The position numbers and the translations under genes were made by a program. Source: Candidatus Uhrbacteria bacterium (lineage in GTDB: Bacteria > Patescibacteriota > Patescibacteriia > UBA9934 > GWF2-40-263). From it: DNA of 64,000 nt. Below are positions 3,501 to 60,812 of the stretch, one piece after another (position 1 is the first letter of the stretch; every line of letters starts with the position of its first letter). Below the pieces are notes generated by a model. That model did not search any database. It was not told the DNA's origin and saw only the letters and a program-made list of their open reading frames with translations. Where the stretch lies: assembly GCA_016205975.1 (NCBI GenBank), contig JACQSK010000015.1, positions 10,624-74,623 of the forward strand, in the 5' to 3' direction.

Positions 3501-3503
3501 GCT

Positions 3504-3773
3504 ATGCCGGTCGTCATTCTATACACGCCGGAGTTTAAACGTGATTACAAAAAACTTTCAGGAGCGTTGCAAGAGTTGCTTAAGAAAAAAGGACGCGTTT
3601 TTGAGATCGAGCCATTTCATCCACTCCTGCGCACGCACAAACTTTCAGGGAAACTCCGTGACCTCTGGTCATTTTCTTTGGATTATCGCTGTCGCGTGAT
3701 TTTTCATTTTCGAGGTCAGGGTGAAGTTGAACTCCTGCGCGTTGGCGACCATTCGATTTATCGAAAGAAGTAG
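3504..3773 (+). CDS. RelE/YafQ-family mRNA-interferase toxin (paralog 1)
   Basis: HKLSGKLRDLWSFSLDYRCRVIFH...LLRVGDHSIY signature. Paralogous to the ORFs at 27645 and 31949. Confidence 0.75.
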   Translation: MPVVILYTPEFKRDYKKLSGALQELLKKKGRVFEIEPFHPLLRTHKLSGKLRDLWSFSLDYRCRVIFHFRGQGEVELLRVGDHSIYRKK

Positions 3774-5653: not shown

Positions 5654-5663
5654 TTGATCCGTT

Positions 5664-7979
5664 ATGCCCTACAACCATCAAGAGATTGAAAAGAAATGGC
5701 AGGATCGCTGGGAAGCGAGCGGGATTTTTCATGCGCATGACGGAGGCGAGAAACAGAAGTTTTACTGTTTGATCGAGTTTCCCTATCCGTCTGGTGCCGG
5801 CCTGCACATCGGGCATCCGCGCAGTTACACGGCGCTCGATGTCGTTGCGCGCAAGAGGCGTCATCAGGGGTATAACGTCTTGTACCCGATCGGTTGGGAT
5901 GCGTTTGGACTCCCGACCGAAAATTACGCGATCAAGCACAAACGCAAGCCGCAGGAGGTGACGCTCGAGAACGTCGCAACGTTCAGGCGCCAGCTCCAGT
6001 CGCTCGGGTTTTCTTTTGACTGGTCACGCGAAGTGAACACGACGGATCCCAGCTATTACAAGTGGACGCAGTGGATGTTCCTTCAGTTTTTCAAGGCCGG
6101 ACTTGCGTACAAGTCCAAACAGCCGATCAACTGGTGCCTGTCGTGCAAGATCGGACTCGCGAACGAGGAAGTCGTAAACGGGAAGTGCGAGCGCTGCGGG
6201 GGAGAGACGGAGAAGCGCGACAAGGAGCAGTGGATGATCGCGATTACGAAGTATGCGGAGCGACTCCTTGAAGATCTCGACGGGGTTGACTATCTCGAGA
6301 AGATCAAAACGCAGCAGCGCAACTGGATTGGAAAGAGCGAAGGCGCGGAGATTGATTTTGTGCTCAATGTCCCAGGGCAAGAATCAGGCAAACAGAAGGT
6401 GACCGTCTTTACCACGCGCGCGGACACTATTTTTGGCGCGACGTTCTTGGTGATCTCGCCGGAGGTCGCCAAGCAGTGGATCGATGTCGGTTGGGTGGCG
6501 CCAGCGTCCGTGCGTGAGTATGTGCAGGAGGCGCTCTCTCGCGCCGAGATGGAACGTGCAGCCGAAGGCAAAGAGAAGACAGGCGTGGACACTCAAATCG
6601 TCGCGATCCATCCTGCCAACGGAAAAGCAATCCCCGTGTGGGTCGCCGATTACGTCTTAGGGAGTTACGGGACAGGGGCGATCATGGCTGTCCCTCAGCA
6701 CGACGAGCGTGACCGAGCGTTTGCCGAGCAGTTCCGTTTACCGATCGCGGACGAGCCGCTTGCGGCTGTTGATGAAGTCGTGGAGAAAGTCGGTGGAAAA
6801 AAAACCGTGAAGTACAAACTCCGCGACTGGGTGTTTTCGCGACAGCGCTACTGGGGTGAACCGATCCCGCTTGTGTGGTGTGAGAAACATCAGTGGGTCG
6901 CGGTACCCGATGAGCAACTTCCTGTTGTCCTGCCAGAGGTCGAGAAGTACGAACCGACCGATACGGGAGAGTCACCGCTTGCCGCGATGACCGACTGGGT
7001 CAACACGACCTGTCCGACGTGTGGCGGGCCAGCCCGTCGAGAGACGGACACGATGCCTAACTGGGCTGGTTCGAGTTGGTACTTTTTGCGCTACATCGAT
7101 GCACACAACGATCAGGCGTTCGCGTCGCGGGACAAGCTCAAGTATTGGATGCCGGTGGATCTCTACAACGGCGGCAATGAGCACACGACACTTCACCTGC
7201 TGTACTCCCGATTCTGGAACAAGTTTTTATTCGACCAAGGCCACGTCCCAACCAGTGAGCCGTATGCGCGCCGCCACAGCCACGGACTCGTGCTTGCAAG
7301 CGACGGGATCAAGATGAGCAAGTCCAAAGGAAACGGTGTGGATCCAGATGAGATCATCACCCAGTATGGCGCCGACGCCCTGCGCATGTATATCCTTTTC
7401 ATGGGTCCGTTTGAGGAGCCGGTGCCGTGGAGTTTGAACGGGCTTATCGGCGTGCGCCGATTTTTGGATAAGGTTGAGCGGTATGTACAAGCATGGGTCC
7501 CATCGGACCATGATGGCCTATCTGGCGCAGGTCTCTTAGAGCGCAGTCTTAAGAAAATCTCCGACGACATCGAAAGTTTTAAGTTCAACACAGCCGTGTC
7601 CGCCTTCATGTCGCTCTTCAATGCGATCGCCGTGAGTCACATCACGCGCGAGCAGCTCAAAAAGATTCTCGTCGTGCTTGGACCGTTCGCTCCGCACCTC
7701 GCCAACGAGTGCTGGGAGAAAATAGGCGAGGGCGGACTCGTCGAGGAACAGGCCTGGCCAGAGTTCGACGCGCGCCTTTTGGTTCAAGACGAAATCGAAA
7801 TAGCGGTGCAGGTGAACGGCAAAGCGCGCGCAACGATTCAAATCTCACCCAACGCTGACGAAGCCGCGGCCAAACAACTCGCGCTCGCACAAGAGAAAGT
7901 CCAGAAGCACCTGGAAGGCAGGGAGATCGTGCAGATCATCTACGTGCCAGGTCGGATTTTGAACATCGTCATCAAGTGA
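5664..7979 (+). CDS. leuS: Leucyl-tRNA synthetase (compact, 771 aa)
   Basis: HIGH-type motif (HIGHPRSY) and KMSKS motif. Overall class I LeuRS architecture. Confidence 0.92.
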   Translation: MPYNHQEIEKKWQDRWEASGIFHAHDGGEKQKFYCLIEFPYPSGAGLHIGHPRSYTALDVVARKRRHQGYNVLYPIGWDAFGLPTENYAIKHKRKPQEVTLENVATFRRQLQSLGFSFDWSREVNTTDPSYYKWTQWMFLQFFKAGLAYKSKQPINWCLSCKIGLANEEVVNGKCERCGGETEKRDKEQWMIAITKYAERLLEDLDGVDYLEKIKTQQRNWIGKSEGAEIDFVLNVPGQESGKQKVTVFTTRADTIFGATFLVISPEVAKQWIDVGWVAPASVREYVQEALSRAEMERAAEGKEKTGVDTQIVAIHPANGKAIPVWVADYVLGSYGTGAIMAVPQHDERDRAFAEQFRLPIADEPLAAVDEVVEKVGGKKTVKYKLRDWVFSRQRYWGEPIPLVWCEKHQWVAVPDEQLPVVLPEVEKYEPTDTGESPLAAMTDWVNTTCPTCGGPARRETDTMPNWAGSSWYFLRYIDAHNDQAFASRDKLKYWMPVDLYNGGNEHTTLHLLYSRFWNKFLFDQGHVPTSEPYARRHSHGLVLASDGIKMSKSKGNGVDPDEIITQYGADALRMYILFMGPFEEPVPWSLNGLIGVRRFLDKVERYVQAWVPSDHDGLSGAGLLERSLKKISDDIESFKFNTAVSAFMSLFNAIAVSHITREQLKKILVVLGPFAPHLANECWEKIGEGGLVEEQAWPEFDARLLVQDEIEIAVQVNGKARATIQISPNADEAAAKQLALAQEKVQKHLEGREIVQIIYVPGRILNIVIK

Positions 7980-10032: not shown

Positions 10033-11361
10033 ATGAATCTCGTCATGATAGGAACCGGCTATGTGGGGCTTACCACCGGCGTTGGGTTTGCCACGCTTGG
10101 GCACCAGGTGGCCTGCGTGGATATTGATGCGGGGAAAGTCGCGCGGCTGGATCGCGGGGAGGTCCCCTTTTATGAGCCGGGCCTTCAGGAGGCTCTGAAA
10201 CACGTCCAGGAAAAAGGACGCATCTTATTTACGTCTGATTTGAAAAGCGTCATCGGCGGCGCCGAGGTCGTGATGATCGCGGTGGGCACGCCGCCCAAGA
10301 GTTCGGGCGAGGCGGATTTGACCGCGCTATTTGCCGTGGCAGACCAGATCGGGAGCGTGTTGGATCATGAGGCCGTCATCGCGACCAAGAGCACCGTGCC
10401 CGTGGGCACCAACCGGATCGTCCTTGCGCGTGTGCGCGAAGCGATGCGCGCGGCCGGACGCGAGGAGCTTACGAGTCTTATCAACATCGTGTCCATTCCC
10501 GAGTTCCTGCGCGAGGGCTCGGCGTTTGAAGATTTTCTGCAGCCGGACCGCCTGGTGATCGGCTCGGACGATCGCGTCGCGGCACAGATCACCGAGCGCT
10601 TGCATCGTGACATCATCGCGCCCAGGGTGATGACCTCGCTTGAATCTGCGGAGCTCATCAAGTACGCGGCCAACGCGTTTCTCGCCACCAAGATTTCCTT
10701 CATCAATGAAATCGCCAACCTCGCCGACCGCGTGGGCGCGGATGTGCGCCACGTCGCCGAGGGTCTCGGGCATGACCACCGCATCGGTCCGCATTTTTTG
10801 AAAGCGGGCGTGGGATACGGCGGGTCGTGTTTTCCCAAAGACGTTTCCGCGCTCGAGCAAATCTCCGGCGCTCATGGGTATGCCTTCAAGCTGCTCTCCG
10901 CAGTGATCGAAGTGAATAATCGCCAGCGCGAGATGTTTTTTAAGCGCCTGGTGGAAGAGCTTGGTGGCGTGAGAGGGCGGCGCGTGGCCGTATGGGGGTT
11001 GGCCTTCAAAGCGCAGACGGACGATATTCGCGAGTCGGCGGGAATTGAGATCGCCCAGCGGCTGCACGCCACGGGAGCGGAGCTGTGCGTCTATGACCCG
11101 CAAGCGATGAACAACGCGCGCGCGGTCCTGTCGCCGCACGTTGAGTTCGCGCCCACGGCCATGGACGCCGCAGAGGGCGCGGACGCGCTGGTGGTCCTCA
11201 CCGAGTGGCCGGAGTTCCGCGAAGTGTCTTTTTCCACGCTGCACGACCGCATGCTCGAACCCAGGATTTTTGACGGCCGCAACCATCTTGCGGACCTGCA
11301 TCTGGAGAACCAAGGATTTATCTATCGCGGCGTGGGCTTGGGGAGCTATGCGTCTGCATGA
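10033..11361 (+). CDS. ugd: UDP-glucose 6-dehydrogenase
   Basis: N-terminal GTGYVGL Rossmann motif and GGSCFPKD catalytic-Cys motif. Confidence 0.9.
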   Translation: MNLVMIGTGYVGLTTGVGFATLGHQVACVDIDAGKVARLDRGEVPFYEPGLQEALKHVQEKGRILFTSDLKSVIGGAEVVMIAVGTPPKSSGEADLTALFAVADQIGSVLDHEAVIATKSTVPVGTNRIVLARVREAMRAAGREELTSLINIVSIPEFLREGSAFEDFLQPDRLVIGSDDRVAAQITERLHRDIIAPRVMTSLESAELIKYAANAFLATKISFINEIANLADRVGADVRHVAEGLGHDHRIGPHFLKAGVGYGGSCFPKDVSALEQISGAHGYAFKLLSAVIEVNNRQREMFFKRLVEELGGVRGRRVAVWGLAFKAQTDDIRESAGIEIAQRLHATGAELCVYDPQAMNNARAVLSPHVEFAPTAMDAAEGADALVVLTEWPEFREVSFSTLHDRMLEPRIFDGRNHLADLHLENQGFIYRGVGLGSYASA

Positions 11362-21557: not shown

Positions 21558-21624
21558 CGCCCCTAAAGGGGCTTTGGACTCAGCTTCAGTTCAGCCTCAA
21601 TTCAAAGGGCCTTTAGGCCCGTTC
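21556..21624. repeat. Intergenic palindromic element, copy A: GCCCCTAAAGGGGC ... CTCAATTCAAAG ... GGGCCTTTAGGCCC
   Basis: Two 5-bp GC hairpins with TAAA/TTTA loops flank a core shared with the element at 57897-57960. Confidence 0.6.
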
Positions 21625-24160: not shown

Positions 24161-26254
24161 ATGCCACGAGAATATCCGCTTGCCGCCACAAGGAACTTTG
24201 GAATCTTCGCGCATATCGACGCGGGGAAGACGACCGTGTCTGAGCGCATTCTTTTTTACACGGGAAAAAAGCACAAGATCGGCGAGGTACACGAAGGCGC
24301 CGCCACCATGGACTGGATGGAACAGGAGCGCGAGCGCGGCATCACCATCACCGCGGCGGCGACGACCTGCTTTTGGAAAGACCATCGCTTGAACCTGATC
24401 GATACGCCTGGGCACATTGACTTTACCGTTGAGGTGAAGCGCTCCATGCGCGTGCTGGATGGCGGCGTGGCTGTGTTCGACGGCGTCGCGGGCGTGGAAC
24501 CGCAGTCGGAAACCAACTGGCGCTACGCGGACGACTTCAAGGTCCCGCGCATTGCCTTTGTGAACAAGCTCGACCGCACGGGCGCAGATTTTTATAAGGA
24601 CCTCGACTCCATCCACCGCCGACTGACCAAAAATGCGCATCCGATCCAGCTTCCCATAGGCACAGAAGCAAACTTTGCCGGCGTGATTGACTTGCTGCAC
24701 ATGAAGGCGCACATCTACAAAGATGATTTGGGGAAAGACGTGGAGGTCGGGGAGATTCCCGCCGAGTACCTGGACCGCGCCAAGGAATATCGCGCCAAGC
24801 TCGTGGAGGCCGTTGCCGAGAACGACGAGGCGCTCATGAACAAGTATGTGGGTGGCGAGGAGATCAGCATTGAAGAGATGAAGCCGGTGATCCGCAAGGC
24901 AACCATTGCCAACACATTCGTGCCGGTCATGTGCGGTTCGGCTTTGAAGAACAAAGGCGTGCAGCTCTTGCTCGATGCCGTCGTGGACTATCTGCCCAAT
25001 CCGCTGGAGGTGCCTCCTGTGATCGGACATGATCCAGACGACATGGAGAAAGAACTCGTGCGCCATGCCTCTGACGAAGAGCCGTTTTCGGCGCTCGCCT
25101 TCAAGATCGCGGCAGACCCGTTCGTAGGTAAGCTCGCGTTCTTTCGCGTGTACTCCGGCATGGTCAAGGCGGGTTCGTATATTTTGAACTCCTCCACGGG
25201 AAACAAGGAACGCGTCGGCCGCATCGTGCGCCTGCACGCCAACACGCGCGAGGAAGTGGGAGAGGTCTATGCCGGGGAGATCGCCGCCATGGTGGGCTTG
25301 AAGGAAACCTTCACCGGTCACACGCTGTGCGATCCAGATCACCCAATCGTGCTGGAGGCGATCAGCTTTCCCGAGCCGGTTATTTCCATTGCGATTGAAC
25401 CCAAGACCAAAGCCGACCAGGAAAAGATGGCCATCGCCCTGCAGAAGTTGTCTGAGGAAGATCCGACGTTCCGCGTGCGGACGGATGAGGAGACCAACCA
25501 GGTCATCATCTCGGGCATGGGCGAGCTGCACTTGGATATTATCGTCGATCGCATGAAGCGCGAGTTTTCGGTCGAGTGCAACGTCGGCCAGCCGCAGGTC
25601 AGCTACCGTGAGACCGTGAAAGGAAGCGCGGAAGGGGAAGGCAAGTACATCCGTCAGACCGGCGGGCGAGGACAGTATGGCCACTGTTTGGTGCGTATTG
25701 AAAAGCTGCCGCCTGGTTCCGGCGTCCAGTTTGAAGAGGAGGTCAAGGGCGGCACGATTCCTCGCGAGTACTTCAACCCGATCGAGAAAGGCATTCGCGA
25801 GGCGGCTGATCGCGGGGTCATGGCCGGGTATCCTCTGCTGGATTTGAAAGTGACGCTCACCGACGGGTCCTACCACGAGGTTGACTCCTCAGAAGCGGCC
25901 TTCAAGATCGCCGGGTCCATGGCGTTCCAGGACGCGGCAAAGAAAGCCGGCGTGGATCTCTTGGAGCCGATGATGAAAGCGGAAGTGTCCACGCCAGAGG
26001 ACTTCATGGGATCGGTCGTGGGAGATTTGAATGCCAAGCGCGGACAGATTCAAGAGATGTCGGACCGCAGCGGCGCCAAGATCATCACCGCGTTCGTGCC
26101 ACTGGCTGAGATGTTCGGCTATGCGACGAGCTTGCGCTCGATGACGCAGGGCCGTGCCAGCTATTCGATGGAGTTTGATCATTACGATGTGGTGCCTGGG
26201 AACGTCGCGAAAGAGATCGTTGAGAAACGCGGAAGCGGACCCACGCGAGCGTAA
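24161..26254 (+). CDS. fusA: Elongation factor G
   Basis: [10 protein letters not shown]1 motif, DTPGHIDF motif, 697 aa. Confidence 0.95.
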
Positions 26255-26261
26255 AATACAA

Positions 26262-26285
26262 AACAGAGCTTCGGCTCTGTTTTTG
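26262..26285 (+). terminator. Intrinsic terminator immediately after fusA
   Basis: AACAGAGC-TTCG-GCTCTGTT hairpin followed by TTTT, starting 8 nt after the stop. Confidence 0.6.
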
Positions 26286-26308
26286 GTTGTGCTAAAATCT
26301 ACCCGTCT

Positions 26309-27340
26309 ATGAAAACTGTTCCGAAAAGCGTCCTTGGCGCCTACGCGATTGGGGCCGTCCAGTCGATCACGCAGGTGACGGCAGGGCTGGTCCACGAGAC
26401 GTTCGCGGTCAAGACCGATCAGGGACGCTACATCATCCAAAAACTCCATCCAGTGCTCGCGAGCAAAGCGATCGGAGAGGACTTCTTCGCCGTGACCGAG
26501 TTTTTGCGATCGCAGAAATTCTTGTCGCCTGTGTGCGTCCGCACAAAAAAGGGAGAGGTGCTTTCCGTGGACCAGACAGACGTCTGGCGGATGCAGACGC
26601 TGTTGCCTGGACGGACGATTCACGTAATCGAGAGTCTTATCATGGCTCGAGAGGCTGGGCAGATCTATGCCAGGTTCCACAAAGTCATGGACAAGATGGA
26701 CTATCGGTTTAAGTCAAAGAAGATTTTGCACGAGACGGAGAAGGTGTACGAGGCACTAGGGAAGGCGACAAAGGGGGCAGAGGGCGCAAAGGGAGCTGAG
26801 GTCGCACAGGAGGTTGCGTTCATCCGTCGGAATCTGCCGGAGTTTTTCCTACCTGCGGATCTCCCGCTGCGCGTCATCCATGGTGATCCAAAGATTTCCA
26901 ATATTTTGTTTGACCGCCACGGCAGGGCCAAGGCCATTATTGATCTTGATACCTGCAATCGTCGTCCGCTCCTTGTAGAACTTGGGGACGCGTTCCGTTC
27001 GTGGTGCGGTGGGCGAGAGGACGATCCGAGCAATACGTTCTCGCTTTCACGATTCCGCGCTGCGTGGAAGGGCTATGAGGCTGGCGCACAGGGATTTCTG
27101 ACCCGACGCGAGCGTCAGCTCGTGCCCCGCGCGATCGGTACGATTACGCTTGAGCTCGCTGCACGCTTCCTTACCGATTACTTTACCGACAACTACTTCG
27201 GTTGGGATGCCTCTCGTTATCCGTCTCGAGCTTCTCATAATCTCGCACGAGCCCGCGGCCAAATCGCAGAGTTTAAGGATTATCAAAAGAAGCTTCCGCA
27301 GATCAAGAAGATCGTGGAAGTACAGCCCACGGTAAGATGA
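26309..27340 (+). CDS. Phosphotransferase-family (APH/choline-kinase-like) small-molecule or protein kinase
   Basis: Brenner motif HGDPKISNILF and IDLDTCNRRP (DFG-equivalent) in a 343-aa protein. Confidence 0.7.
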   Translation: MKTVPKSVLGAYAIGAVQSITQVTAGLVHETFAVKTDQGRYIIQKLHPVLASKAIGEDFFAVTEFLRSQKFLSPVCVRTKKGEVLSVDQTDVWRMQTLLPGRTIHVIESLIMAREAGQIYARFHKVMDKMDYRFKSKKILHETEKVYEALGKATKGAEGAKGAEVAQEVAFIRRNLPEFFLPADLPLRVIHGDPKISNILFDRHGRAKAIIDLDTCNRRPLLVELGDAFRSWCGGREDDPSNTFSLSRFRAAWKGYEAGAQGFLTRRERQLVPRAIGTITLELAARFLTDYFTDNYFGWDASRYPSRASHNLARARGQIAEFKDYQKKLPQIKKIVEVQPTVR

Positions 27341-27362
27341 ATATCTACACGTGCGGTTAATG

Positions 27363-27391
27363 TTGACGGTAGGTGAAAGATATCGTATGAT
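27363..27391 (+). promoter_or_regulatory. Sigma70-like promoter (TTGACG-17-TATGAT) for TA module 2 and the downstream genes
   Basis: Hexamers and spacing seen directly. A palindromic ATGATAA...TTAATCAT candidate operator lies between -10 and the ATG. Confidence 0.4.
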
Positions 27392-27418
27392 AATTTCATA
27401 CTTAATCATCACTACCCT

Positions 27419-27640
27419 ATGTCCACCATCTCCGTGCCGCTTACAGGACCTCTCGAGCAGTTTATCGATGACATGATTCGTCGGGGGGCTGCGCCTAATA
27501 AAGCCGAAGTTGTCCGACAGGCGCTTGTTCGTTTTGCAGAGGATCAGGCGGTTGAGGCGGTTCTTCGTTCTGAACAAGAAGCGCGAGATGGAAAAGTTTT
27601 GCGCGGCGATTTACGTGACCTCATAAAACAGGTGACGTAG
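27419..27640 (+). CDS. Ribbon-helix-helix (ParD/CopG-like) type II antitoxin
   Basis: Small RHH-like protein sitting 4 nt upstream of a RelE-family toxin. Confidence 0.65.
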   Translation: MSTISVPLTGPLEQFIDDMIRRGAAPNKAEVVRQALVRFAEDQAVEAVLRSEQEARDGKVLRGDLRDLIKQVT

Positions 27641-27644
27641 ACTT

Positions 27645-27908
27645 ATGGACGTTTCCTACACGCCGTCCTTTATTCGCATGTTGAAATCGCTCCCAGACGT
27701 ACTGATTGATGAAGCGTTAGAGAAAATAGCATTGTTTCGAGATCCGACGAACCACAAACAACTGAAAGTTCACAAGCTCAGTGGTCGCTTGAAAGGTCGT
27801 TACAGTTTTTCCGTGAACTACAAAATTCGAATCGTTTTTAATTATCTCCCTACAGATCCTAAACAAGCACGACTCGACGCGATAGGTGATCATCGTGTTT
27901 ATGATTAG
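27645..27908 (+). CDS. RelE/YafQ-family toxin (paralog 2)
   Basis: HKLSGRLKGRYSFSVNYKIRIVF...AIGDHRVYD. Confidence 0.75.
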   Translation: MDVSYTPSFIRMLKSLPDVLIDEALEKIALFRDPTNHKQLKVHKLSGRLKGRYSFSVNYKIRIVFNYLPTDPKQARLDAIGDHRVYD

Positions 27909-27940
27909 GATGAGTCTCCAAACACAACTCTGCAAATGCG

Positions 27941-29749
27941 GTGCGATGTGATATGAGCATCTTCTCTCGCGGTACAGATCATCGTCTTTATCTATTCTGC
28001 ACTCTGTTGGTGCTGATTTTTTTGTTGGGCATAGTGATCGGTGGTTCAACGCAAGAAAAGGGAGCCTCTCAAACCGAGCTGGTAAGTGGTCCGGTTTTTT
28101 CGTATGGTTACGCCGCCGCGTCGTTTTATGAGAGAGCCAACGGGACGGCAGAGGCGATCGGGAGAACGAGAGCGCACTCGGCGATTGTGGCACATCATCT
28201 TCTCGTCGCAGACAAGATCGCGCAAGTGTTTGCTGCGCTGGGAGACGGGAAGGAGAAGACGGTCGTAATTCTTTCGCCGAATCATTTTTTTGCTGGACGT
28301 TCTGCCCTGCAGACGACGACAGGATCCTGGACAACGCCGTTTGGGGAGGTGGAGGTTGATCGTGAGAGTGTCGGCGCGCTCCTGGCGGCCGTGCCGGAGC
28401 TGTCCCTCGAGCCTGGGACGTTCAAAGAGGAACACGGCGTGGCTTCGCTCACGCCATTTGTGAAAACGTGGTTTCCCGAATCTAAGCTCGTGCCGCTTGT
28501 GATTCATGACAAGGCAACCGATGAAGAAGTCGCGGCGCTCGCTCGAGCGATTGAAGACGAACTTCCCGACGCTCTCGTGATTGCCTCGATCGACATGTCG
28601 CATTATCTTCCCGAGCACATTCAAGAGTATCACGATGCGGTGACGATGCGATCGATCGCGCAGGGCGCGGCGGACTTCGATCTCGAGATCGATGCCAATG
28701 ATGTGTTGCAGACACTGTTTGAAGTGAATCGTCTGCGCGGGGACCAGCAGTGGGTACAGACGCATCACGGAAGCTCGCTCGCGATGGAGGCAACGGACGA
28801 CTGGCGAGAGAATACCAGTCACATCCTTGGATATTTTATGGATGGCGAACCCGTGCCGGATCCGTTCGTGAGTTTGCAGTTTGTCGGCGACGTCATGCTC
28901 GATCGCGGCGTTCGTATCAAGATGGAAGAACACGGAGCGGCTTATCCATGGGAGAACGTCCAGCGTTTCCTGCAAGGATCGCATCTGCGCATTGCCAATC
29001 TTGAAGGGACGGTGAGTGAGAAGGAGATCCCCATGACCTACGAGTCGCCGTTCACCTTCACCTTTGCGCCGGAGTTCATAGAGGCGATGAAGCCGTTCAT
29101 CGACGCGGTGAGTCTTGCAAATAATCACTCAGACGACTTTGGCGCAGAAGGTGAACAGGAGACGCGGGATCGCCTCGCCATCGATCTCGGGATCGATTGG
29201 TTCGGAGGCTCCTCACGTTCTGATGATATTTACCGATACGACCTCTGTGACCAATCGGGGTGCTCTCTTGGGATCAGTCTGATCGGCTTCAATCAGTTCG
29301 GATTCCCGATTCCCGACCTGACCCCCATTATTGAGGCTGAGGATCAGGCTGGGCGGTTTGTCATCGTCGTGCCGCACTGGGGCGAGGAATATGTCACGGA
29401 GCCACAGGAGAGCCAGCGCGAGCTGGCGACGGCGATGATCGCGGCTGGCGCGGACTTCATCGTCGGCGCGCACCCCCACGTCGTCCAGGGGATCGAAGTC
29501 ATTGACAACGTCCCTGTCGTTTACTCGCTCGGGAACTTTGTCTTCGATCAAGGCTTTGATGAGACCGCGCGTGGCCTGACGCTTGGTGTGATTCTGGACG
29601 ATAGAAGTGCTACACTTTACCTGTCACCGATCTCGACCCTGGACGGACAGCCAACGCCCATGTCAGACGAGGAAGCCGCACAGCTGCTTCTTGATCGAAA
29701 CATTTCAGCAAACTCTCTAACCATTTTTTATGATGAACCTTCATCCTGA
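27941..29749 (+). CDS. Membrane-anchored fusion protein: MEMO1-family domain (res ~60-300) + CapA/PGA_cap metallophosphatase-like domain (res ~305-602)
   Basis: N-terminal signal-anchor TM helix. MEMO1 landmarks: AIVAHHLL, ILSPNHF, EEHGVASLTPF, PLVIHD, IASIDMSHY. CapA landmarks: FVGDVMLDRG, ANLEG, SLANNHSDDFG, VVPHWGEEY, GADFIVGAHPHVVQG, YSLGNFVFDQ. Confidence 0.8.
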   Translation: MRCDMSIFSRGTDHRLYLFCTLLVLIFLLGIVIGGSTQEKGASQTELVSGPVFSYGYAAASFYERANGTAEAIGRTRAHSAIVAHHLLVADKIAQVFAALGDGKEKTVVILSPNHFFAGRSALQTTTGSWTTPFGEVEVDRESVGALLAAVPELSLEPGTFKEEHGVASLTPFVKTWFPESKLVPLVIHDKATDEEVAALARAIEDELPDALVIASIDMSHYLPEHIQEYHDAVTMRSIAQGAADFDLEIDANDVLQTLFEVNRLRGDQQWVQTHHGSSLAMEATDDWRENTSHILGYFMDGEPVPDPFVSLQFVGDVMLDRGVRIKMEEHGAAYPWENVQRFLQGSHLRIANLEGTVSEKEIPMTYESPFTFTFAPEFIEAMKPFIDAVSLANNHSDDFGAEGEQETRDRLAIDLGIDWFGGSSRSDDIYRYDLCDQSGCSLGISLIGFNQFGFPIPDLTPIIEAEDQAGRFVIVVPHWGEEYVTEPQESQRELATAMIAAGADFIVGAHPHVVQGIEVIDNVPVVYSLGNFVFDQGFDETARGLTLGVILDDRSATLYLSPISTLDGQPTPMSDEEAAQLLLDRNISANSLTIFYDEPSS

Positions 29750-31622
29750 GGACAATGAGTCTCGATCTGTGCGACCATGGCTTCTCTATTTGATCGGCGG
29801 AGCTCTTATCGTCGTCGCGTTTGCGACGGGCGTTTTTTTCTCTGATGTGATGGAGAGGCGTGCTGGCGATGTGTACCCGATTGTCGACGAAGAAGCCCTC
29901 GAGGAGGAGGGAGCTCCAGGATTCACTCAGGACGAGGAAGGAGAACCCGTCAAGTACACCGCCACCGGGACGCTCACGATCGATTGGATCGCTCCTGACG
30001 AGCAGCCGAGTTATCCGGACGATGGCGTGTTCGATCGAGCGATGTGCTACGACGTGTACGATGGAGAGATGGGCAATAGCTGTGCCGAAGACCCCGACGG
30101 AGGGCCTCGTTGGTCCTACAAACTTGGAACCGTGGAGGGCGGCGCCTATGACGGACGAGATGTGGTCATGACAAGCGTGCCGATGTCCGGCATGGGAGTT
30201 TATTACGAGACGTTCTATCTTCTCTATGATCCTGCGAGAGAACAGGCGCCGGTGATTATTGATTCCCAGACACGAGGGGAAGGGTGGACTCTTGGCGACG
30301 GGAACGCGATCACCGCTACGGAGCTGATCGGCGAGACTCGTCTTGCAAAACTTTCAGGCTATGTGATCGACACCGAAGCGCTGATTCCCGAGCTTGCGAT
30401 CGACAGGGCGCTGGTGGAACCACCACCCGGGAACGAATTTGCTTTTGTCGGCTCTTGGAGGCGTTTGTATTCTGACGAGGCGATTTCGCTCACAGGGGCA
30501 ACCGCGTCGACGACGCTTTCAGATGGGAGGACTTTGTATCTCTGGGAGCCGAAAGTGGACGCCGATGGAATGATCCTGGAAGGTCAGACAGGGGTCGGTA
30601 AGAACTTGTTTTACCTGGTCGATGAAGATGGTCGGGTGCTGTTCTATGATCTCATCGTTCCGTTTTTTGCTAACGAGGTCGATCAGGAAGGATATACAAA
30701 CCAGGCCATAGGCATTCCCAACGTGGAGTGGAAAGATGGATCGACCAACGACGCAACGTATCTGAAAGGGGACGTGGGTGGATGCGGGTTCACGACCGTG
30801 ACGCATGTCATCTCTCCTGCGGTTGTCACGTCTCTCGATTTGCAGTATGCCGGCGTAGGTGTCATGCCAGGAAGGGGAACGGAATACCCCGTGTACGAGC
30901 CCGAGAGCTACGAGAACGCGTATTACGAAGACGCGTTCAACGCCGTGACCTTTGGGGGCGAGGGCACAGAGCCCAAGACGTACGACGATTACTCTCATCC
31001 CTATTTTTACTTCCAGGATTCTTTTGGCCGATGGATCGAGTTCATGAGCAACGAGCTGATCCCACCGGTGGAATGTGGCAAGCCGGTGGTCTATCTCTAT
31101 CCTGAGCAGGAAACGGACCTGGAGGTCTTCGTGCATCCGCGCGGCGGGTTCTCCTCTACCGAGCCTGAGTACGGCGATGGGTGGGACGTGACGGCCTATC
31201 CCGACGGCCACCTTGTGAACCGAGCGGACGGCATCGGCTATCCGTACCTGTTCTGGGAAGGTCGTGGTGGACTGTATGCGCCGCCGAGTTCGTATTGGGT
31301 CATGGCTCGGTCGGATGTTGAATCATTCTTGAGAGCCACGCTCACAAAAATGAATCTGAGCGGAAACGAAACGGACGACTTCATCGAGTTCTGGCTGCCG
31401 CGCATGCAAGAGGCGTCGTACTACAAGATCGGTTTCCACGACACGCGGGTGATGGATGCACTTGCTCCACTCAGCTTCTCGGTCGCACCTGATCACGTCT
31501 TCCGCATCCTGATGGATTACTCCGAGCTTCAAACTCCCGAGCCGTCCAAGCCACCGGCACGTCTGCCTCGCGCCAACCGCGAAGGGTTCGATGTGCTTGA
31601 ATGGGGCGGCGTGCTTCGCTAG
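29730..31622 (+). CDS. Hypothetical exported/membrane-anchored protein (630 aa) translationally coupled to the MEMO1-CapA gene
   Basis: N-terminal TM anchor and an acidic, aromatic-rich extracytoplasmic body. 20-nt overlap with the upstream gene. No family recognised. Confidence 0.6.
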   Translation: MMNLHPEDNESRSVRPWLLYLIGGALIVVAFATGVFFSDVMERRAGDVYPIVDEEALEEEGAPGFTQDEEGEPVKYTATGTLTIDWIAPDEQPSYPDDGVFDRAMCYDVYDGEMGNSCAEDPDGGPRWSYKLGTVEGGAYDGRDVVMTSVPMSGMGVYYETFYLLYDPAREQAPVIIDSQTRGEGWTLGDGNAITATELIGETRLAKLSGYVIDTEALIPELAIDRALVEPPPGNEFAFVGSWRRLYSDEAISLTGATASTTLSDGRTLYLWEPKVDADGMILEGQTGVGKNLFYLVDEDGRVLFYDLIVPFFANEVDQEGYTNQAIGIPNVEWKDGSTNDATYLKGDVGGCGFTTVTHVISPAVVTSLDLQYAGVGVMPGRGTEYPVYEPESYENAYYEDAFNAVTFGGEGTEPKTYDDYSHPYFYFQDSFGRWIEFMSNELIPPVECGKPVVYLYPEQETDLEVFVHPRGGFSSTEPEYGDGWDVTAYPDGHLVNRADGIGYPYLFWEGRGGLYAPPSSYWVMARSDVESFLRATLTKMNLSGNETDDFIEFWLPRMQEASYYKIGFHDTRVMDALAPLSFSVAPDHVFRILMDYSELQTPEPSKPPARLPRANREGFDVLEWGGVLR

Positions 31623-31626
31623 ACAA

Positions 31627-31668
31627 ACAAAAAACACTCGGGTCAATGACTCGGGTGTTTTTTATGGA
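31627..31668 (+). terminator. Intrinsic terminator, which is also copy 1 of a 30-nt direct repeat: AAAAAACACTCGGGTCAATGACTCGGGTGTTTTTT
   Basis: 13-bp stem (with G.U pairs) plus U-run, 5 nt after the stop of the 630-aa gene. Near-identical copy at 32317-32355. Confidence 0.6.
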
Positions 31669-31725
31669 GCATTTGACCACTCGTCTTGAGGATGATAGAG
31701 TAACAAAAATTGTTACAGTTTATCT

Positions 31726-31944
31726 ATGCGCAACATCGTCAACATTTCCCTACCAGGCAGTCTTACAAAAGAAGTCGAACGTGGAGTCAAAGAATTCCAT
31801 TTTGCTTCCAAGAGTGAATTTTTTCGGCATCTGGTCCGAGAGTGGCTCACAGGACACTTGGTTTTGGACTTGGCTCAGAGTCGTCGTGAGTACGCCCAGG
31901 GGAAAGCCAAAGTTTTGTCGAACGTAAAAGATCTTTGGAAGTAG
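31726..31944 (+). CDS. Ribbon-helix-helix (CopG-like) antitoxin
   Basis: Small RHH protein sitting 4 nt upstream of a RelE paralog. Confidence 0.65.
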   Translation: MRNIVNISLPGSLTKEVERGVKEFHFASKSEFFRHLVREWLTGHLVLDLAQSRREYAQGKAKVLSNVKDLWK

Positions 31945-31948
31945 TGTT

Positions 31949-32209
31949 ATGGCGGAAGTTCTCTACACGCCGCATTTCAAGCGTGACGCAAAACGCTTGC
32001 CGGTTTCTCTGCGCAAACTTATTGAGGATCGGCTCAAGCGTTTCAAAACAGATCCGTTCGATCCCTTACTCAAGACTCACAAGTTAGACGGGAAGCTGCG
32101 CGGACACTGGTCGTTTTCCATCGACCACAAGATTCGTGCGATCTTTAGCATCGAGGACAAATCAGTGTTTGTCCTTCATGCGATCGGTGATCATTCCATC
32201 TACGATTAG
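31949..32209 (+). CDS. RelE/YafQ-family toxin (paralog 3)
   Basis: HKLDGKLRGHWSFSIDHKIRAIF...AIGDHSIYD. Confidence 0.75.
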   Translation: MAEVLYTPHFKRDAKRLPVSLRKLIEDRLKRFKTDPFDPLLKTHKLDGKLRGHWSFSIDHKIRAIFSIEDKSVFVLHAIGDHSIYD

Positions 32210-32316
32210 GAACAAATAACCTATGCCTCCAGAAGACAGAGCTTCCTTCTGTCCATCCTGTGGCTATCCTGCTCATGCTGGTCACGCGCCGAAATGCTCG
32301 GTTGTTGCAGGAAAGA

Positions 32317-32355
32317 AAAAACACTCGGGTCATAGACTCGGGTGCTTTTATATCT
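32317..32355 (+). repeat. Copy 2 of the 30-nt repeat/terminator hairpin (AAAAAACACTCGGGTCATAGACTCGGGTGCTTTTAT)
   Basis: 27 of 30 core positions match copy 1. Together the two copies bracket TA module 3. Confidence 0.6.
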
Positions 32356-32599
32356 GGGGTGGAAGTGCTGTTTCTGGCTTGCCGTGTGACTTATTCCAGT
32401 TCATCTACCTCTTTTCCTGTGCGGTCAATTCCCAGATGATTTCCGTCGAAGGACAAGCCAGGACGGGGTTCTTGCCCACCGAGACCTCAGTGGTATTGGC
32501 GAGACACGATACTGCACAAGAGGACAGGCTACCAGAAGGTCAGGTTTCTGTCAAACGATCGTGGGCTTTTCCCTGTAAAAGCAGCTGATTACTCATTTC

Positions 32600-32627
32600 T
32601 TGACACAGCCCTCTCATCGGCTAAAAT
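32600..32627 (+). promoter_or_regulatory. Sigma70-like promoter (TTGACA-16-TAAAAT) for the 137-aa ORF
   Basis: Consensus hexamers. The ATG lies 10 nt after the -10. Confidence 0.45.
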
Positions 32628-32636
32628 GCGCTCACT

Positions 32637-33050
32637 ATGAGCAACCACTTACAGCGTATCCTCGACCTCGTCCGCCGAACGGGAAACACCATGGTTGTCG
32701 TTGAAAAGGATCAAGATCAGGGATTTGTCGTCATGGACTTGGATCAGTATGAGGTTCTCCTAGATTCTCAGATCATTTCACCCACTCGTCCAGAATCCTC
32801 GACTCCCAACATCTGGGACGTGATGCCGGAGGCTAAGGAACAAGGGGAAACATGGGATCCAGACAGTCTATCCGAGGCAGAGATGGCCGAGTTGGAGAAG
32901 CAATACGAGCAGTTTGCCAAGAGAAACGTGAAGGTGGCGATACAAGAGACACAGACTGGGCCAACACCGGTTGAGCCTCCAAAGCCGCCAGAAACCAAAA
33001 AAGACGAGGACTTTGGCGAAGAAGAGTTCTATCTTGAACCTGTGGACTAA
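32637..33050 (+). CDS. Hypothetical protein with a Phd/YefM-like N-terminus and an acidic C-terminal tail (orphan antitoxin-like)
   Basis: QRILDLVRRTGNTMVVVEKDQDQGFVVMDLDQYEVLL resembles the Phd/YefM fold. No toxin partner is adjacent. Confidence 0.45.
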   Translation: MSNHLQRILDLVRRTGNTMVVVEKDQDQGFVVMDLDQYEVLLDSQIISPTRPESSTPNIWDVMPEAKEQGETWDPDSLSEAEMAELEKQYEQFAKRNVKVAIQETQTGPTPVEPPKPPETKKDEDFGEEEFYLEPVD

Positions 33051-33067
33051 GAGGGGAACCCAGAGAC

Positions 33068-33096
33068 TTGCGCGATTTCAGGCCCTTTGTTATACT
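33068..33096 (+). promoter_or_regulatory. Candidate independent promoter for tuf (TTGCGC-17-TATACT)
   Basis: Hexamers seen 80 nt upstream of the tuf ATG. Confidence 0.4.
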
Positions 33097-33176
33097 TTCG
33101 CACGTCTTCAAAAAAGGAGGCACGGATCAAAAATCATAAATAATTTTGGGTAAAAATTGCCCTTACTTTCAATCGT

Positions 33177-34370
33177 ATGGCTGAAGTCTTTCAGCGCACT
33201 AAGCCGCACGTGAACGTCGGTACCATTGGTCACGTTGACCATGGCAAGACCACGACCACGGCCGCCCTGCTCGCCGTTTTGAACGCGAAGGGCATGACTG
33301 CCCAGAAAAAGGGCGTGGATGATTTGGATAAGGCTCCTGAGTCCAAGGCGCGTGGAATCACGATCGCCACGGCTCACTGTGAGTATGAGTCCGACAAGCG
33401 TCATTATGCGCACGTCGACTGCCCAGGTCACGCCGACTACATTAAGAACATGATCACCGGTGCCGCCCAGATGGACGGAGCCATTTTGGTCGTGTCGGCC
33501 GCTGATGGTCCCATGCCTCAGACTCGTGAGCACATTCTGCTCGCTCGTCAGGTTGGCGTTCCAGCCGTTGTCGTGTTTTTGAACAAAGTCGATCAAGTGG
33601 ATGACCCAGAGCTGATTGATTTGGTTGAGGAAGAAGTCCGCGACCTGTTGAAGAAGTATGAGTTCCCAGGCGATGAAGTGCCCGTGATCCGTGGCTCAGC
33701 GCTCAAGGCGCTTGAGAACCCGACAGACGATGCGGCGACCAAGTGCATCATGGATCTCGTGAACGCCTTGGACACCTACATCCCAGAGCCCGTGCGTCAG
33801 ACCGACAAACCCTTCTTGATGCCAATCGAAGACGTGTTTTCGATCGAGGGTCGAGGAACCGTGGTGACAGGTCGCATCGAGCGCGGCATGGTCAAGATCA
33901 ACGAGGAGCTCCAGATCGTCGGTATGCGTCCAGAGGCCATGAAGACGGTCGTGACCGGTATTGAAATGTTCAACAAGCAGCTTTCTGAAGGGCGCGCTGG
34001 CGACAACGCAGGTTTGCTCTTGCGCGGAACGAAGAAAGAGGAAGTCGAGCGCGGCATGGTTTTGGCCGCTCCTGGTTCCATCACCCCTCACACCGAGTTT
34101 GAGGCCGAGACGTATGCACTCACCAAAGAGGAAGGCGGCCGCCATAAGCCATTCTTCAAAGGCTACAAGCCACAGTTTTACATTCGCACCACGGACGTGA
34201 CGGGCGAGGTGACACTGCCTGAGGGAACAGAGATGGTCATGCCGGGCGATACCGTGAACCTGACCATCAAGCTCATCCAGCCTGTGGCTCTTGAAGAGAA
34301 GATGTCTTTCGCGATCCGCGAAGGAGGTCACACGGTTGGCGCTGGTGTGGTAACAAAGATTATCAATTAA
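33177..34370 (+). CDS. tuf: Elongation factor Tu
   Basis: [21 protein letters not shown] motifs; 397 aa. Confidence 0.96.
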
Positions 34371-57896: not shown

Positions 57897-57960
57897 CACG
57901 AACGGGCCTAAAGGCCCTAAGAATTTCATTCTCAATTCAAAGCCCCTTTAGGGGCGTTCA
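57897..57960. repeat. Intergenic palindromic element, copy B: GGGCCTAAAGGCCC ... CTCAATTCAAAG ... GCCCCTTTAGGGGC
   Basis: Same hairpin pair and core as the element at 21556-21624, with the stems swapped. Confidence 0.6.
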
Positions 57961-59352: not shown

Positions 59353-59493
59353 ATAGGCAAAGACACAAAAAGAAAAGGGCTCCTTAGGTAGTTAACCGTT
59401 CGGATCCCTTTTCGTATTGATAAAACAATCTATCACAACAAAGCGTTTTCGTCTTGTTTTTCGAAAGACGTTCTTGTAAGATATCTCTGTGAT

Positions 59494-60728: not shown

Positions 60729-60776
60729 TTGTGACTACATCATATCCGCGAAACGATTCCGTTTCTGAGATTGGTA
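60729..60776 (+). repeat. attR-like direct repeat = degenerate second copy of the asnS 3' end (would encode ..RETIPFLRLVNRI..)
   Basis: Aligned base by base to 59298-59345. Confidence 0.65.
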
Positions 60777-60812
60777 AACCGGATCAATTCATTGAAAGGG
60801 AAAAAGTGATCT

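What the first reader, a model, noticed from the sequence alone, without database searches (positions are those of the whole stretch)
31627..32355. TA cassette 3 is bracketed by two copies of a 30-nt hairpin/terminator repeat
AAAAAACACTCGGGTCA-ATG-ACTCGGGTG-TTTTTT (31627-31668) sits right after the 630-aa gene. AAAAAACACTCGGGTCA-TAG-ACTCGGGTG-CTTTTAT (32317-32355) sits after the toxin gene. The RHH-RelE pair lies exactly between the two direct copies. This is the expected footprint if the cassette was inserted at, or duplicated together with, the terminator hairpin, or if the hairpin is a short mobile palindromic element.
Basis: seen in the sequence. Interest (0 to 1): 0.55.

Follow-up and report, generated by a model that had tools for sequence, protein, structure and literature searches.

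The report
Duplicated terminator hairpin flanking accessory-gene slot
The two hairpin repeats are real: they are two copies of one locus-specific, two-way transcription terminator that in Uhrbacteria bracket a small replaceable slot for accessory genes (here a toxin-antitoxin pair), not a mobile repeat and not a common terminator.

Summary
Two hairpins sit at 31629-31663 and 32316-32349. Their 10-bp stems are identical, their loops differ, and there are no other copies in the window.

The source is a Candidatus Uhrbacteria MAG. Fourteen orthologous loci from three clades show a conserved slot. It lies between the 630-aa gene and a conserved ~205-nt candidate sRNA gene on the minus strand, whose terminator is the hairpin.

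- **Empty slots carry one hairpin:** L016, L042, L045, and L014 (which has a MITE-like insert beside it).
- **Filled slots carry one on each side of the cargo:** RHH-RelE plus kinase in the window, L038 and L041; a ParE pair in L043; an HATPase_c_3 gene in L044, L047 and L074.
- **A multi-cargo array carries several:** L015 has four hairpins around three cargo blocks.

A covariance model finds the hairpin nowhere else in about 220 kb of Uhrbacteria DNA. It does not flank the window's two other RelE cassettes.

The RHH-RelE insertion is old: its synonymous-site divergence equals that of core genes. Both stems are nevertheless unchanged, so both copies are selected elements rather than a scar.

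Between the toxin and copy 2 lies the 31-codon stump of a deleted Zn-ribbon APH-like kinase gene. No integrase or transposase is nearby.

Best reading: duplicated bidirectional terminators insulate a cargo slot, and cargo is lost or exchanged by recombination between the copies. How the duplication first arose is unresolved.

The parts
29730..31622 (+). Conserved 630-aa gene of unknown function (no Pfam hit). It is the left border of the slot, and its stop codon is 6 nt from hairpin copy 1.
   Evidence: ORF. No Pfam family. Orthologs at 45-72% identity are always followed by the hairpin or slot.
31625..31663 (+). Hairpin copy 1 (HP1). Bidirectional intrinsic-terminator-like hairpin: A6, 10-bp stem, loop AAT, T6.
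   Evidence: covariance-model hit 56.9 bits.
31673..31716 (+). Own promoter of the TA pair (TTGACC-17-TG-TAGAGT), overlapped by the palindrome GTAACAAAAATTGTTAC (31700-31716), a likely antitoxin operator.
   Evidence: Promoter scan. The block is 100% conserved in L038 and L041. The operator role is inferred.
31726..31944 (+). RHH-type antitoxin, 72 aa.
   Evidence: Pfam RHH_1 at 18.9 bits, just below the cutoff. 86-92% aa identity among the window, L038 and L041 copies.
31949..32209 (+). RelE/YoeB/YafQ-like toxin, 86 aa.
   Evidence: Pfam YoeB_toxin at 28.3 bits, above the cutoff of 27. 78-91% aa identity to the L041 and L038 orthologs. 41% identity to the TA2 toxin.
32223..32315 (+). 5' stump (31 codons, CPSCGYPAHAGHAPKC zinc ribbon) of an APH-family kinase gene. 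The gene is full length in relatives (375 aa in L015, 303 aa in L038). The deletion joint lies in the A-tract of hairpin copy 2, at the microhomology GGAAAG/AAAA.
32312..32351 (.). Hairpin copy 2 (HP2). Same stem as copy 1, loop ATA. Terminator for the TA/kinase-stump transcript on the + strand and for the candidate sRNA on the - strand.
   Evidence: covariance-model hit 59.4 bits. Its position next to the sRNA is conserved in 14 loci.
32316..32520 (-). Candidate ~205-nt structured sRNA gene, the right border of the slot. It ends in hairpin copy 2.
   Evidence: It is conserved more strongly than the flanking coding sequence. Helix P1 has U.G on the minus strand but C.A on the plus strand. Eight pairs show compensatory changes. 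No Rfam family matches.
32526..32554 (-). Conserved promoter of the candidate sRNA: TTGACA (32554-32549), a 17-nt variable spacer ending in TGn, then TAGCCT (32531-32526).
   Evidence: The -35, TG and -10 elements are conserved with a variable spacer in 11 genomes. Activity is inferred.
32600..33050 (+). Promoter (TTGACA-16-TAAAAT, 32600-32627) and 137-aa gene (32637-33050) that precede tuf (33177-34370). This is the next conserved + strand unit.

Best explanation
The two repeats are paralogous copies of one locus-specific, bidirectional Rho-independent terminator.

In Uhrbacteria this terminator sits where the + strand 630-aa gene converges on a conserved ~205-nt sRNA gene on the minus strand. 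That junction is a slot for accessory genes. When the slot is empty there is one hairpin. When it is filled there is a hairpin on each side of the cargo, and arrays have one hairpin between cargo blocks.

In the window:
- Copy 1 ends the 630-aa transcript and shields the TA promoter.
- Copy 2 ends the TA (and former kinase) transcript, and on the other strand ends the sRNA.

The RHH-RelE pair, with a Zn-ribbon kinase gene that has since been deleted down to a stump, has occupied the slot since before three sampled lineages split. Both hairpins have been kept by selection.

Cargo is lost, and probably exchanged, by homologous recombination or gene conversion between the direct hairpin copies. 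This leaves a single hairpin at empty sites. No dedicated transposase or integrase is involved.

Shown: the anatomy, the locus specificity, the empty and filled sites, the age of the insertion, the conservation, and the lack of a nearby recombinase.
Inferred: terminator activity, sRNA expression, and the recombination route.
For: Terminator character:
- Hairpin with A- and U-tracts, stable on both strands.
- The only weak Rfam matches are to the 3' terminator portions of other RNAs.
- The stem is kept by compensatory change across 16 copies: 89% of pairs intact, 4 pairs changed on both sides, 0 of 500 shuffles reach the observed score.

Locus specificity:
- Exact stem search of 185,579 GTDB species genomes gives 3 contigs, all at this locus.
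- In JGI metagenomes, 3 of 21 hits are real and all are at this locus.
- Covariance model R1 hits only the slot in 205 kb plus 16 kb of Uhrbacteria DNA.

Slot contents:
- L016, L042 and L045 have one hairpin and no cargo. L014 has one hairpin with a MITE beside it.
- The window, L038 and L041 carry RHH-RelE (plus kinase).
- L043 carries an unrelated ParE pair.
- L044, L047 and L074 carry HATPase_c_3 between two hairpins.
- L015 has four hairpins around three cargo blocks.

Age and selection:
- The TA cassette is orthologous in the window, L038 and L041. Its 4-fold-site identity is 0.37-0.62, against 0.40-0.57 for core genes.
- Stems are still 20/20 identical while loops vary.

Recombination between copies:
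- In L074 both copies share a derived G.T state and are identical over 22 of 22 nt, while other lineages of that group differ.
- In L044 the two copies resemble each other and the single L045 copy more than they resemble other genomes' copies.
- Single-hairpin sites have the left flank of copy 1 and the right flank of copy 2.

sRNA: conserved minus-strand promoter, U.G-versus-C.A strand asymmetry and covariation.

No integrase or transposase was found among 37 window ORFs scanned. ComEC, RecO and RecQ are present.
Against: - No transcript data exist, so terminator and sRNA activity are untested.
- The origin of the first duplication is unexplained.
- In L015 the duplicated unit includes relics of the 3' end of the preceding HATPase gene. 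This fits homology-driven events but not a simple model.
- In the window's clade the stem is invariant, including both G.T positions that a single T-to-C change would improve on both strands. The sister clade varies by 5.5 of 20 positions at similar core divergence. That is more constraint than a plain terminator needs and hints at sequence-specific recognition.
- The HATPase cargo phylogeny is incongruent with the core gene, yet the cargo always sits in this slot. That could indicate targeted insertion.
- The NJ tree used to argue for secondary loss has short internal branches.
Confidence: 0.55

Rival explanations
1. The hairpin is a recombination site (att- or attC-like) for a recombinase encoded elsewhere. 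Cargo genes would be cassettes integrated site-specifically at the 3' end of the sRNA gene. This resembles islands at tRNA/tmRNA genes or integron cassettes, so the locus would be a minimal integrase-distal cassette array.
For: - Arrays of co-oriented cargo are each followed by a hairpin of one family, up to 4 in L015.
- Unrelated cargo sits at the same site in different lineages.
- HATPase cargo is incongruent with the core phylogeny but always in this slot.
- All copies share the frame AAAACAC...GTGTTTT.
- The stem is frozen, including its wobble positions, in one clade.
- The repeat equals the 3' end of an RNA gene, as at tRNA or tmRNA att sites.
Against: - No integrase was found in the window or in any of the 14 loci.
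- The site is 38-45 nt long and lacks the attC R''/R' cores.
- The junction between the hairpin and the cargo is not fixed: 10 to more than 300 nt of unrelated sequence lies between copy 1 and the HATPase leader.
- The duplicated unit varies in length.
- The cargo has its own promoter.
- No copy was found on viral contigs, plasmids or phages.
- HATPase occupies the slot in three clades, which fits vertical descent with losses.
Confidence: 0.12
2. A one-off insertion footprint. The TA cassette inserted at the terminator in this lineage and duplicated its target, and the second copy is a passive scar.
For: A direct repeat brackets the cassette, and single-copy empty sites exist in relatives.
Against: - The same cassette with both copies is present in three lineages at core-level synonymous divergence.
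- A passive scar would have decayed, yet both stems are 20/20 identical while loops and flanks drift.
- Hairpin pairs flank other cargo in three clades.
- No known transposition mechanism gives a ~40-nt target duplication (general knowledge).
Confidence: 0.1
3. The hairpin is a dispersed mobile palindromic element (REP/BIME-, MITE- or PATE-like) that happens to flank the cassette.
For: It is an imperfect palindrome in an intergenic position. A separate MITE-like element does occur at this locus in L014, L040 and L016.
Against: - There are only two copies in 64 kb, and only slot copies in about 220 kb of related DNA.
- There is one exact copy per genome in each of the three GTDB hits.
- Empty sites keep one copy, unlike IS200/IS605-type ends.
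- No RAYT or TnpA gene is present.
Confidence: 0.02
4. Chance similarity of two independent terminators, or an assembly artefact.
For: None beyond the shortness of the element.
Against: 0 of 100 shuffles match. Identity extends into both flanks. The arrangement is identical in 9 or more independent assemblies and in two other lineages.
Confidence: 0.01

Closest known systems
Bidirectional intrinsic (Rho-independent) terminators between convergent genes
   Same: A GC-containing stem-loop flanked by an A-tract and a T-tract, so that either strand gives a hairpin plus a U-tract. It sits at the 3' ends of convergent transcription units.
   Different: Here the terminator is duplicated, sometimes several times, around inserted cargo. 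One clade keeps the exact sequence rather than only the structure.
Integron gene cassettes with attC sites, and CALINs (attC clusters lacking an integrase)
   Same: Co-oriented small cargo units, often TA pairs, each followed by an imperfect palindromic repeat of one family. Arrays vary between relatives. One repeat is left when a cassette is absent.
   Different: There is no IntI. The repeat is 38-45 nt rather than 57-141 nt and lacks the RYYYAAC/GTTRRRY cores and extrahelical bases. The cargo-repeat junctions are not fixed, and the cargo has its own promoter. Arrays hold 0-3 blocks at a single site.
Genomic islands integrated into the 3' ends of tRNA/tmRNA genes (att duplication)
   Same: The direct repeat flanking the inserted DNA corresponds to the 3'-terminal hairpin of a small RNA gene, which stays intact. 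Tandem accretion occurs, with the most decayed copies farthest from the RNA gene (L015).
   Different: The RNA is an uncharacterised sRNA rather than a tRNA or tmRNA. No integrase lies next to it. The inserts are 0.6-4.5 kb of accessory genes, not phage- or ICE-like islands.
REP/BIME elements and MITEs
   Same: A short imperfect palindrome located after stop codons.
   Different: It is not dispersed: one locus per genome, and no RAYT gene.
dif/pdif modules (XerC/D-site-flanked modules that often carry TA genes on Acinetobacter plasmids). This comparison is recalled from the literature and was not tested here.
   Same: Small modules, frequently TA pairs, bracketed by copies of a short imperfect palindrome and lacking their own recombinase.
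   Different: pdif sites are 28 bp (11-6-11) and flank modules in inverted orientation. The hairpin here is 10-3-10, lies in direct orientation, and is a terminator on a chromosome.

Membership tests
Rho-independent (intrinsic) terminator | A stable stem-loop immediately followed by a U-tract in the RNA. | tested here: met
   -20.1 and -16.8 kcal/mol on the + strand, -14.5 and -11.8 on the - strand, all better than every one of 200 shuffles. U-tracts are present on both strands. Copy 2 was listed by the terminator scan.
Rho-independent (intrinsic) terminator | Located at the 3' end of a transcription unit. | tested here: met
   Copy 1 is 6 nt after the stop codon of the 630-aa gene. Copy 2 lies at the end of the TA/kinase-stump unit and at the 3' end of the candidate minus-strand sRNA.
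Rho-independent (intrinsic) terminator | Structure maintained by compensatory substitutions. | tested here: met
   4 of 10 pairs changed on both sides. The covariation score is 0.283, against 0.188 for shuffles (0 of 500 reach it).
Rho-independent (intrinsic) terminator | Transcripts actually end there. | not testable with these tools
   No transcriptome data are available.
Integron attC site / CALIN | Integron integrase (IntI) adjacent to the array, or elsewhere for a CALIN. | tested here: not met
   No Phage_integrase hit among 37 window ORFs, nor in the gene tables of 14 related loci. The rest of the genome was not available.
Integron attC site / CALIN | A 57-141 nt site with R''(RYYYAAC)-L''...L'-R'(GTTRRRY) cores and extrahelical bases. 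| tested here: not met
   The repeat is 38-45 nt. Its ends are AAAACAC and GTGTTTT, and the 10-bp stem is continuous with G.T pairs only.
Integron attC site / CALIN | Cassette boundaries at a fixed point in the site. | tested here: not met
   The distance and sequence between copy 1 and the HATPase leader differ among L015, L044, L047 and L074.
REP/BIME or MITE dispersed repeat | Many copies scattered over intergenic regions of one genome. | tested here: not met
   copies occur only at this locus. The source MAG outside the 64-kb window could not be scanned.
IS200/IS605-type element or PATE (hairpin-ended) | Subterminal hairpins belong to the element, so the empty site lacks them. TnpA or TnpB is present somewhere. 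| tested here: not met
   Empty sites retain one hairpin. No Y1 transposase or TnpB is present in the window.
Island at the 3' end of a small RNA gene (tRNA/tmRNA-type att) | The direct repeat equals the 3' end of an RNA gene. | tested here: inconclusive
   The repeat equals the terminator of a candidate sRNA, which is supported by a conserved promoter and covariation. The RNA is unverified and is not a tRNA or tmRNA.
Island at the 3' end of a small RNA gene (tRNA/tmRNA-type att) | An integrase gene at the island end next to the RNA gene. | tested here: not met
   The genes next to the sRNA are a kinase, HATPase or TA pair, never an integrase.
Type II toxin-antitoxin, RelE/ParE superfamily with RHH antitoxin | The toxin matches a RelE-superfamily model above its threshold. 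| tested here: met
   YoeB_toxin at 28.3 bits against a cutoff of 27. YafQ at 27.2 bits is below its cutoff of 30.
Type II toxin-antitoxin, RelE/ParE superfamily with RHH antitoxin | An upstream small antitoxin with a DNA-binding fold, in a tight two-gene operon with an autoregulatory operator. | tested here: inconclusive
   RHH_1 at 18.9 bits is below its cutoff of 20.5. There is a 4-nt gap between the genes. A palindrome overlaps the -10 element and is invariant in three lineages. Activity was not tested.

The most novel reading that the evidence does not exclude
The hairpin is the recognition or crossover site of a cassette-exchange system that works without an adjacent integrase, either through a recombinase encoded elsewhere or through a hairpin-specific host factor. 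It would be anchored at the 3' end of a previously undescribed sRNA gene. On this reading Uhrbacteria carry a minimal, integron-like slot that captures TA and other accessory genes. The frozen ACTCGGGT-N5-ACTCGGGT stem in the window's clade would then reflect protein recognition rather than termination alone.
Probability: 0.12. Interest if true: 0.8.

Novelty: new variant of a known kind. Interest (0 to 1): 0.4.

Why it matters
CPR/Patescibacteria genomes are tiny and poor in recognisable mobile elements, so how they gain and lose accessory genes is not well understood. This locus is a defined, recurrent site inside the fusA-tuf ribosomal region. TA pairs and other cargo come and go there between two copies of one terminator, with no transposase or integrase in sight.

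If recombination between duplicated terminators is the mechanism, it is a simple, recombinase-free way to build and empty a gene slot while keeping neighbouring transcription units insulated.

The analysis also turned up a conserved, structured candidate sRNA with its own promoter that matches no Rfam family.

None of this changes a major paradigm. It is a neat comparative-genomics case and a handle for experiments.

Tried and rejected
- **Rfam on the locus and three related loci:** no family at E<=1. With a 261-nt query, only weak hits to the terminator ends of other RNAs appeared.
- **tRNA/tmRNA scan:** nothing near the locus.
- **Hairpin pattern in viral contigs:** 0 hits.
- **sRNA motifs in viral contigs:** 0 hits for one motif. 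The other gave 26 hits; 22 are one repeated sequence, and none of the 26 shares any flanking sRNA sequence, so all are chance matches.
- **Locus DNA against plasmids and phages:** no match.
- **PADLOC on all cargo proteins:** no defence-system hit.
- **Pfam on 37 window ORFs, looking for an integrase or transposase:** none found.
- **Metagenome pattern hits:** 18 of 21 were chance tandem-repeat matches.
- **Conserved non-coding block as a ribH remnant or an mRNA leader:** rejected. It persists next to an intact ribH in the distant clades and has its own minus-strand promoter upstream of the + strand promoter of the 137-aa gene.
- **Cargo-borne hairpins (each cassette bringing its own):** rejected. 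The hairpins next to HATPase follow the host lineage, not the cargo.
- **Fixed cargo-hairpin junction:** not found.
- **Literature search for a described equivalent:** nothing specific.
Full report
**1. Observation**

- Copy 1 (HP1): A6 31629-34, stem CACTCGGGTC/GACTCGGGTG 31635-44 and 31648-57, loop AAT, T6 31658-63.
- Copy 2 (HP2): A6 32316-21, the same stem at 32322-31 and 32335-44, loop ATA, CTTTT to 32349.

The loop-free 29-mer occurs exactly twice in the window and never in 100 shuffles. The repeat extends to 38 nt at 89% identity.

Both fold as A-tract/stem/U-tract hairpins. The + strand RNA is stronger, with two G.U pairs (-20.1 and -16.8 kcal/mol). The - strand RNA is weaker, with two C.A mismatches (-14.5 and -11.8).

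The arrangement is identical in at least 9 independent assemblies.

**2. What lies between the copies**

- A promoter, TTGACC-17-TAGAGT. It is overlapped by the palindrome GTAACAAAAATTGTTAC.
- A 72-aa RHH-like gene, 31726-31944.
- An 86-aa RelE/YoeB-like gene, 31949-32209.

In relatives this last ORF is a full 303-375-aa Zn-ribbon APH-family kinase. In the window only 31 codons remain. The deletion joint falls in the A-tract of HP2, at the microhomology GGAAAG/AAAA.

**3. Origin and relatives**

The 630-aa protein is annotated in NCBI as a hypothetical protein of a Candidatus Uhrbacteria MAG. I obtained 14 orthologous loci from one DNA-pattern scan of GTDB genomes, one scan of JGI metagenomes, and context look-ups of 630-aa orthologs.

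All of them share this gene order: fusA, APH, (variable), Memo/PGA_cap, 630-aa gene, SLOT, a conserved ~200-250-nt non-coding block, (ribH on the minus strand in the distant clades), a 137-160-aa gene, tuf, the S10 operon.

| Locus | Slot content | Hairpins |
|---|---|---|
| L016, L042, L045 | Nothing | One |
| L014/L040 | A ~135-nt MITE-like insert between the stop codon and the hairpin | One |
| Window, L038 (= L022 + L021), L041 | HP1, RHH-RelE, (kinase), HP2 | Two (L041's contig ends before the second) |
| L043 | HP1, unrelated ParE-type pair, HP2 | Two |
| L044, L047, L074 | HP1, HATPase_c_3 gene, HP2 | Two |
| L046 | HATPase gene | Only the sRNA-proximal one detected |
| L015 | HATPase; DUF5678 plus aspartyl protease; 195-aa gene plus kinase | Four |

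**4. Not dispersed**

A covariance model of the hairpin was built from 16 copies, and the stem is supported by compensatory changes. It hits only the slot in 163 kb, 43 kb and 16 kb of Uhrbacteria DNA. The next best hit is an unrelated fusA terminator at E=0.0055 in L047, with the same terminator at E=0.24 in the window.

The exact stem occurs once per genome in the GTDB hits. The window's other RelE cassettes, TA1 (3225-3773) and TA2 (27419-27908), have no such hairpin.

The hairpin is therefore neither a genome-wide terminator nor a mobile palindromic element, and it is not tied to TA genes as such.

**5. The right-hand neighbour**

The conserved block after HP2 behaves like a minus-strand sRNA gene.
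- Eleven genomes keep TTGAC[A/G], a 17-nt variable spacer ending in TGn, and TAnnnT. In the window the -35 is at 32554-49 and the -10 at 32531-26.
- The predicted transcript runs from about 32520 to 32316, roughly 205 nt.
- It has a closing helix UCUUGUGC/GCACAGGA that contains U.G on the minus strand but C.A on the plus strand.
- Three further helices show compensatory changes.
- It ends in the hairpin plus U-tract.
- Rfam has no match.

HP2 is therefore a shared terminator for convergent units. Expression is inferred, not shown.

**6. Age and selection**

The RHH-RelE cassette is orthologous in the window, L038 and L041 at 78-79% nt identity.

Identity at 4-fold degenerate sites is 0.37-0.62 for the TA genes and 0.40-0.57 for the 630-aa, Memo/PGA_cap and tuf genes. 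The cassette has therefore diverged for as long as the core genome.

The TA proteins are 78-92% identical, so they are under purifying selection.

Over the same time both hairpin stems stayed 20/20 identical, with one change in L041 and one in L015c, while loops and T-tracts drifted. Both copies are therefore maintained elements, not a decaying footprint.

On an NJ tree of the 630-aa protein, the TA-bearing lineages interleave with lineages that lack the cassette (the internal branches are short). This makes precise secondary loss the more likely origin of the single-hairpin sites in L016 and L014.

**7. Evidence that the copies recombine**

- In L074 both copies are identical over 22 nt and share a derived G.T state that other lineages lack.
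- In L044 the two copies resemble each other and the single L045 copy more than they resemble other genomes' copies.
- In L015 the left flanks of the two sRNA-proximal hairpins carry relics of the HATPase 3' end, with TGGAGCGAAGCTnCTGAAAA matching at 19 of 20 positions. The duplicated unit can therefore be longer than the hairpin.
- The spacing between HP1 and the HATPase leader is not fixed.

Variable-length duplicated units and variable junctions argue for homology-driven events (unequal crossover, Campbell-type integration, gene conversion) rather than a fixed att core. The window encodes ComEC, RecO and RecQ but no integrase or transposase.

**8. What remains odd**

In the window's clade the stem is frozen: there are 0 differences among the sRNA-proximal copies of 5 lineages. 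This includes the two G.T positions, which a single T-to-C change would improve on both strands. The sister clade differs by 5.5 of 20 positions on average at similar core divergence.

HATPase identities are 64-72% in all comparisons and do not track the core gene, which ranges from 48-50% (L046 against the rest of its group) and 50-54% (L015's clade against the distant clades) to 77%. HATPase nevertheless occupies the slot in three clades, which also fits descent with losses.

These points keep alive, at low probability, a reading in which the hairpin is recognised sequence-specifically.

**9. Comparison with known systems**

It works like a bidirectional intrinsic terminator, and all testable features of that class are met.

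It resembles integron attC arrays, CALINs and att duplications at tRNA/tmRNA genes in layout. It fails their defining features: there is no integrase, the size is wrong, the core motifs are missing, and the junctions are not fixed.

It is not REP/MITE-like, because it is not dispersed. It is not IS200/IS605-like, because empty sites keep one hairpin.

**10. Verdict**

The locus is best described as an old accessory-gene slot flanked by duplicated terminators at the convergence of a conserved gene and a candidate sRNA. It is a new variant of known hot-spot and cassette architectures and is of moderate interest.

Noticed in passing
window 32316-32554 (minus strand): A candidate new structured sRNA of about 205 nt with a conserved extended -10 promoter. 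It is present in all 14 Uhrbacteria loci examined and matches no Rfam family. Its function is unknown.
   Followed up: partly
window 32223-32315: A 31-codon stump of a Zn-ribbon APH-family kinase gene (303-375 aa in L038 and L015). About 1 kb was deleted, with the joint in the A-tract of hairpin copy 2.
   Followed up: yes
window 27377-27908 vs L016 1079-1610: The second RHH-RelE cassette (TA2) is 93% identical to the L016 copy, while the flanking genes are about 78% identical. This suggests recent exchange. The APH-to-Memo/PGA_cap interval is a second variable slot, holding DUF433, Lactamase_B, DUF6629, an AbiEii pair and RibD_C in L038, and an AbiEii pair in L044, L046 and L047. That slot has no flanking hairpins.
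   Followed up: partly
L014 ~5596-5712; L040 3678-3741; L016 ~6095-6225: A palindromic MITE-like element of about 110-135 nt. In L014 and L040 it is inserted between the 630-aa stop codon and the hairpin. In L016 it lies in the opposite orientation inside a variable loop of the candidate sRNA gene.
   Followed up: no
L015 (reverse strand) ~6836-6875; L025; L044 ~10806-10845; L047 ~10599-10635: An extra small hairpin (for example CCACCTTCGCACAAGGCTACGGTGG) is inserted between the terminator and the sRNA 3' end. It appears only in lineages that have, or show relics of, the HATPase cargo.
   Followed up: no
hairpin copies in the window, L014, L015, L016, L025, L038 and L041 versus L042-L047 and L074: The stem sequence, including its two G.T pairs, is invariant in the window's clade. 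In the sister clades it evolves by compensatory changes at similar core divergence. This is unexplained.
   Followed up: partly
window 21590-21624 and 57925-57959: A second repeated hairpin with identical flanks (CTCAATTCAAAG...GTTC) but compensatory stem changes (GGGCC/GGCCC versus GCCCC/GGGGC).
   Followed up: no
window 59296-59361 and 60738-60803: A 66-nt direct repeat at 80% identity. One copy lies at the 3' end of a class II aaRS gene and the other just upstream of ddl. A second tRNA-synt_2 gene follows at 61904-63346.
   Followed up: no
window 3225-3500 and 3504-3773: A third TA pair (TA1). Its antitoxin looks Phd/YefM-like (my reading of the sequence, not tested). Its 89-aa toxin appears paralogous to the TA2 and TA3 toxins by shared motifs in the sequence; this was not tested by alignment. 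No hairpin flanks it.
   Followed up: partly
L015 (CAYHRJ010000031.1): This contig is labelled 'uncultured Gammaproteobacteria bacterium' but is syntenic with Uhrbacteria over 8 kb, with about 70-77% nt identity over the aligned genes. It is probably mis-binned.
   Followed up: partly
window 24161-34370: fusA and tuf are separated by about 7 kb of inserted genes: APH, TA2, Memo/PGA_cap, the 630-aa gene, the slot, the sRNA and the 137-aa gene. This layout is conserved across three Uhrbacteria clades.
   Followed up: partly
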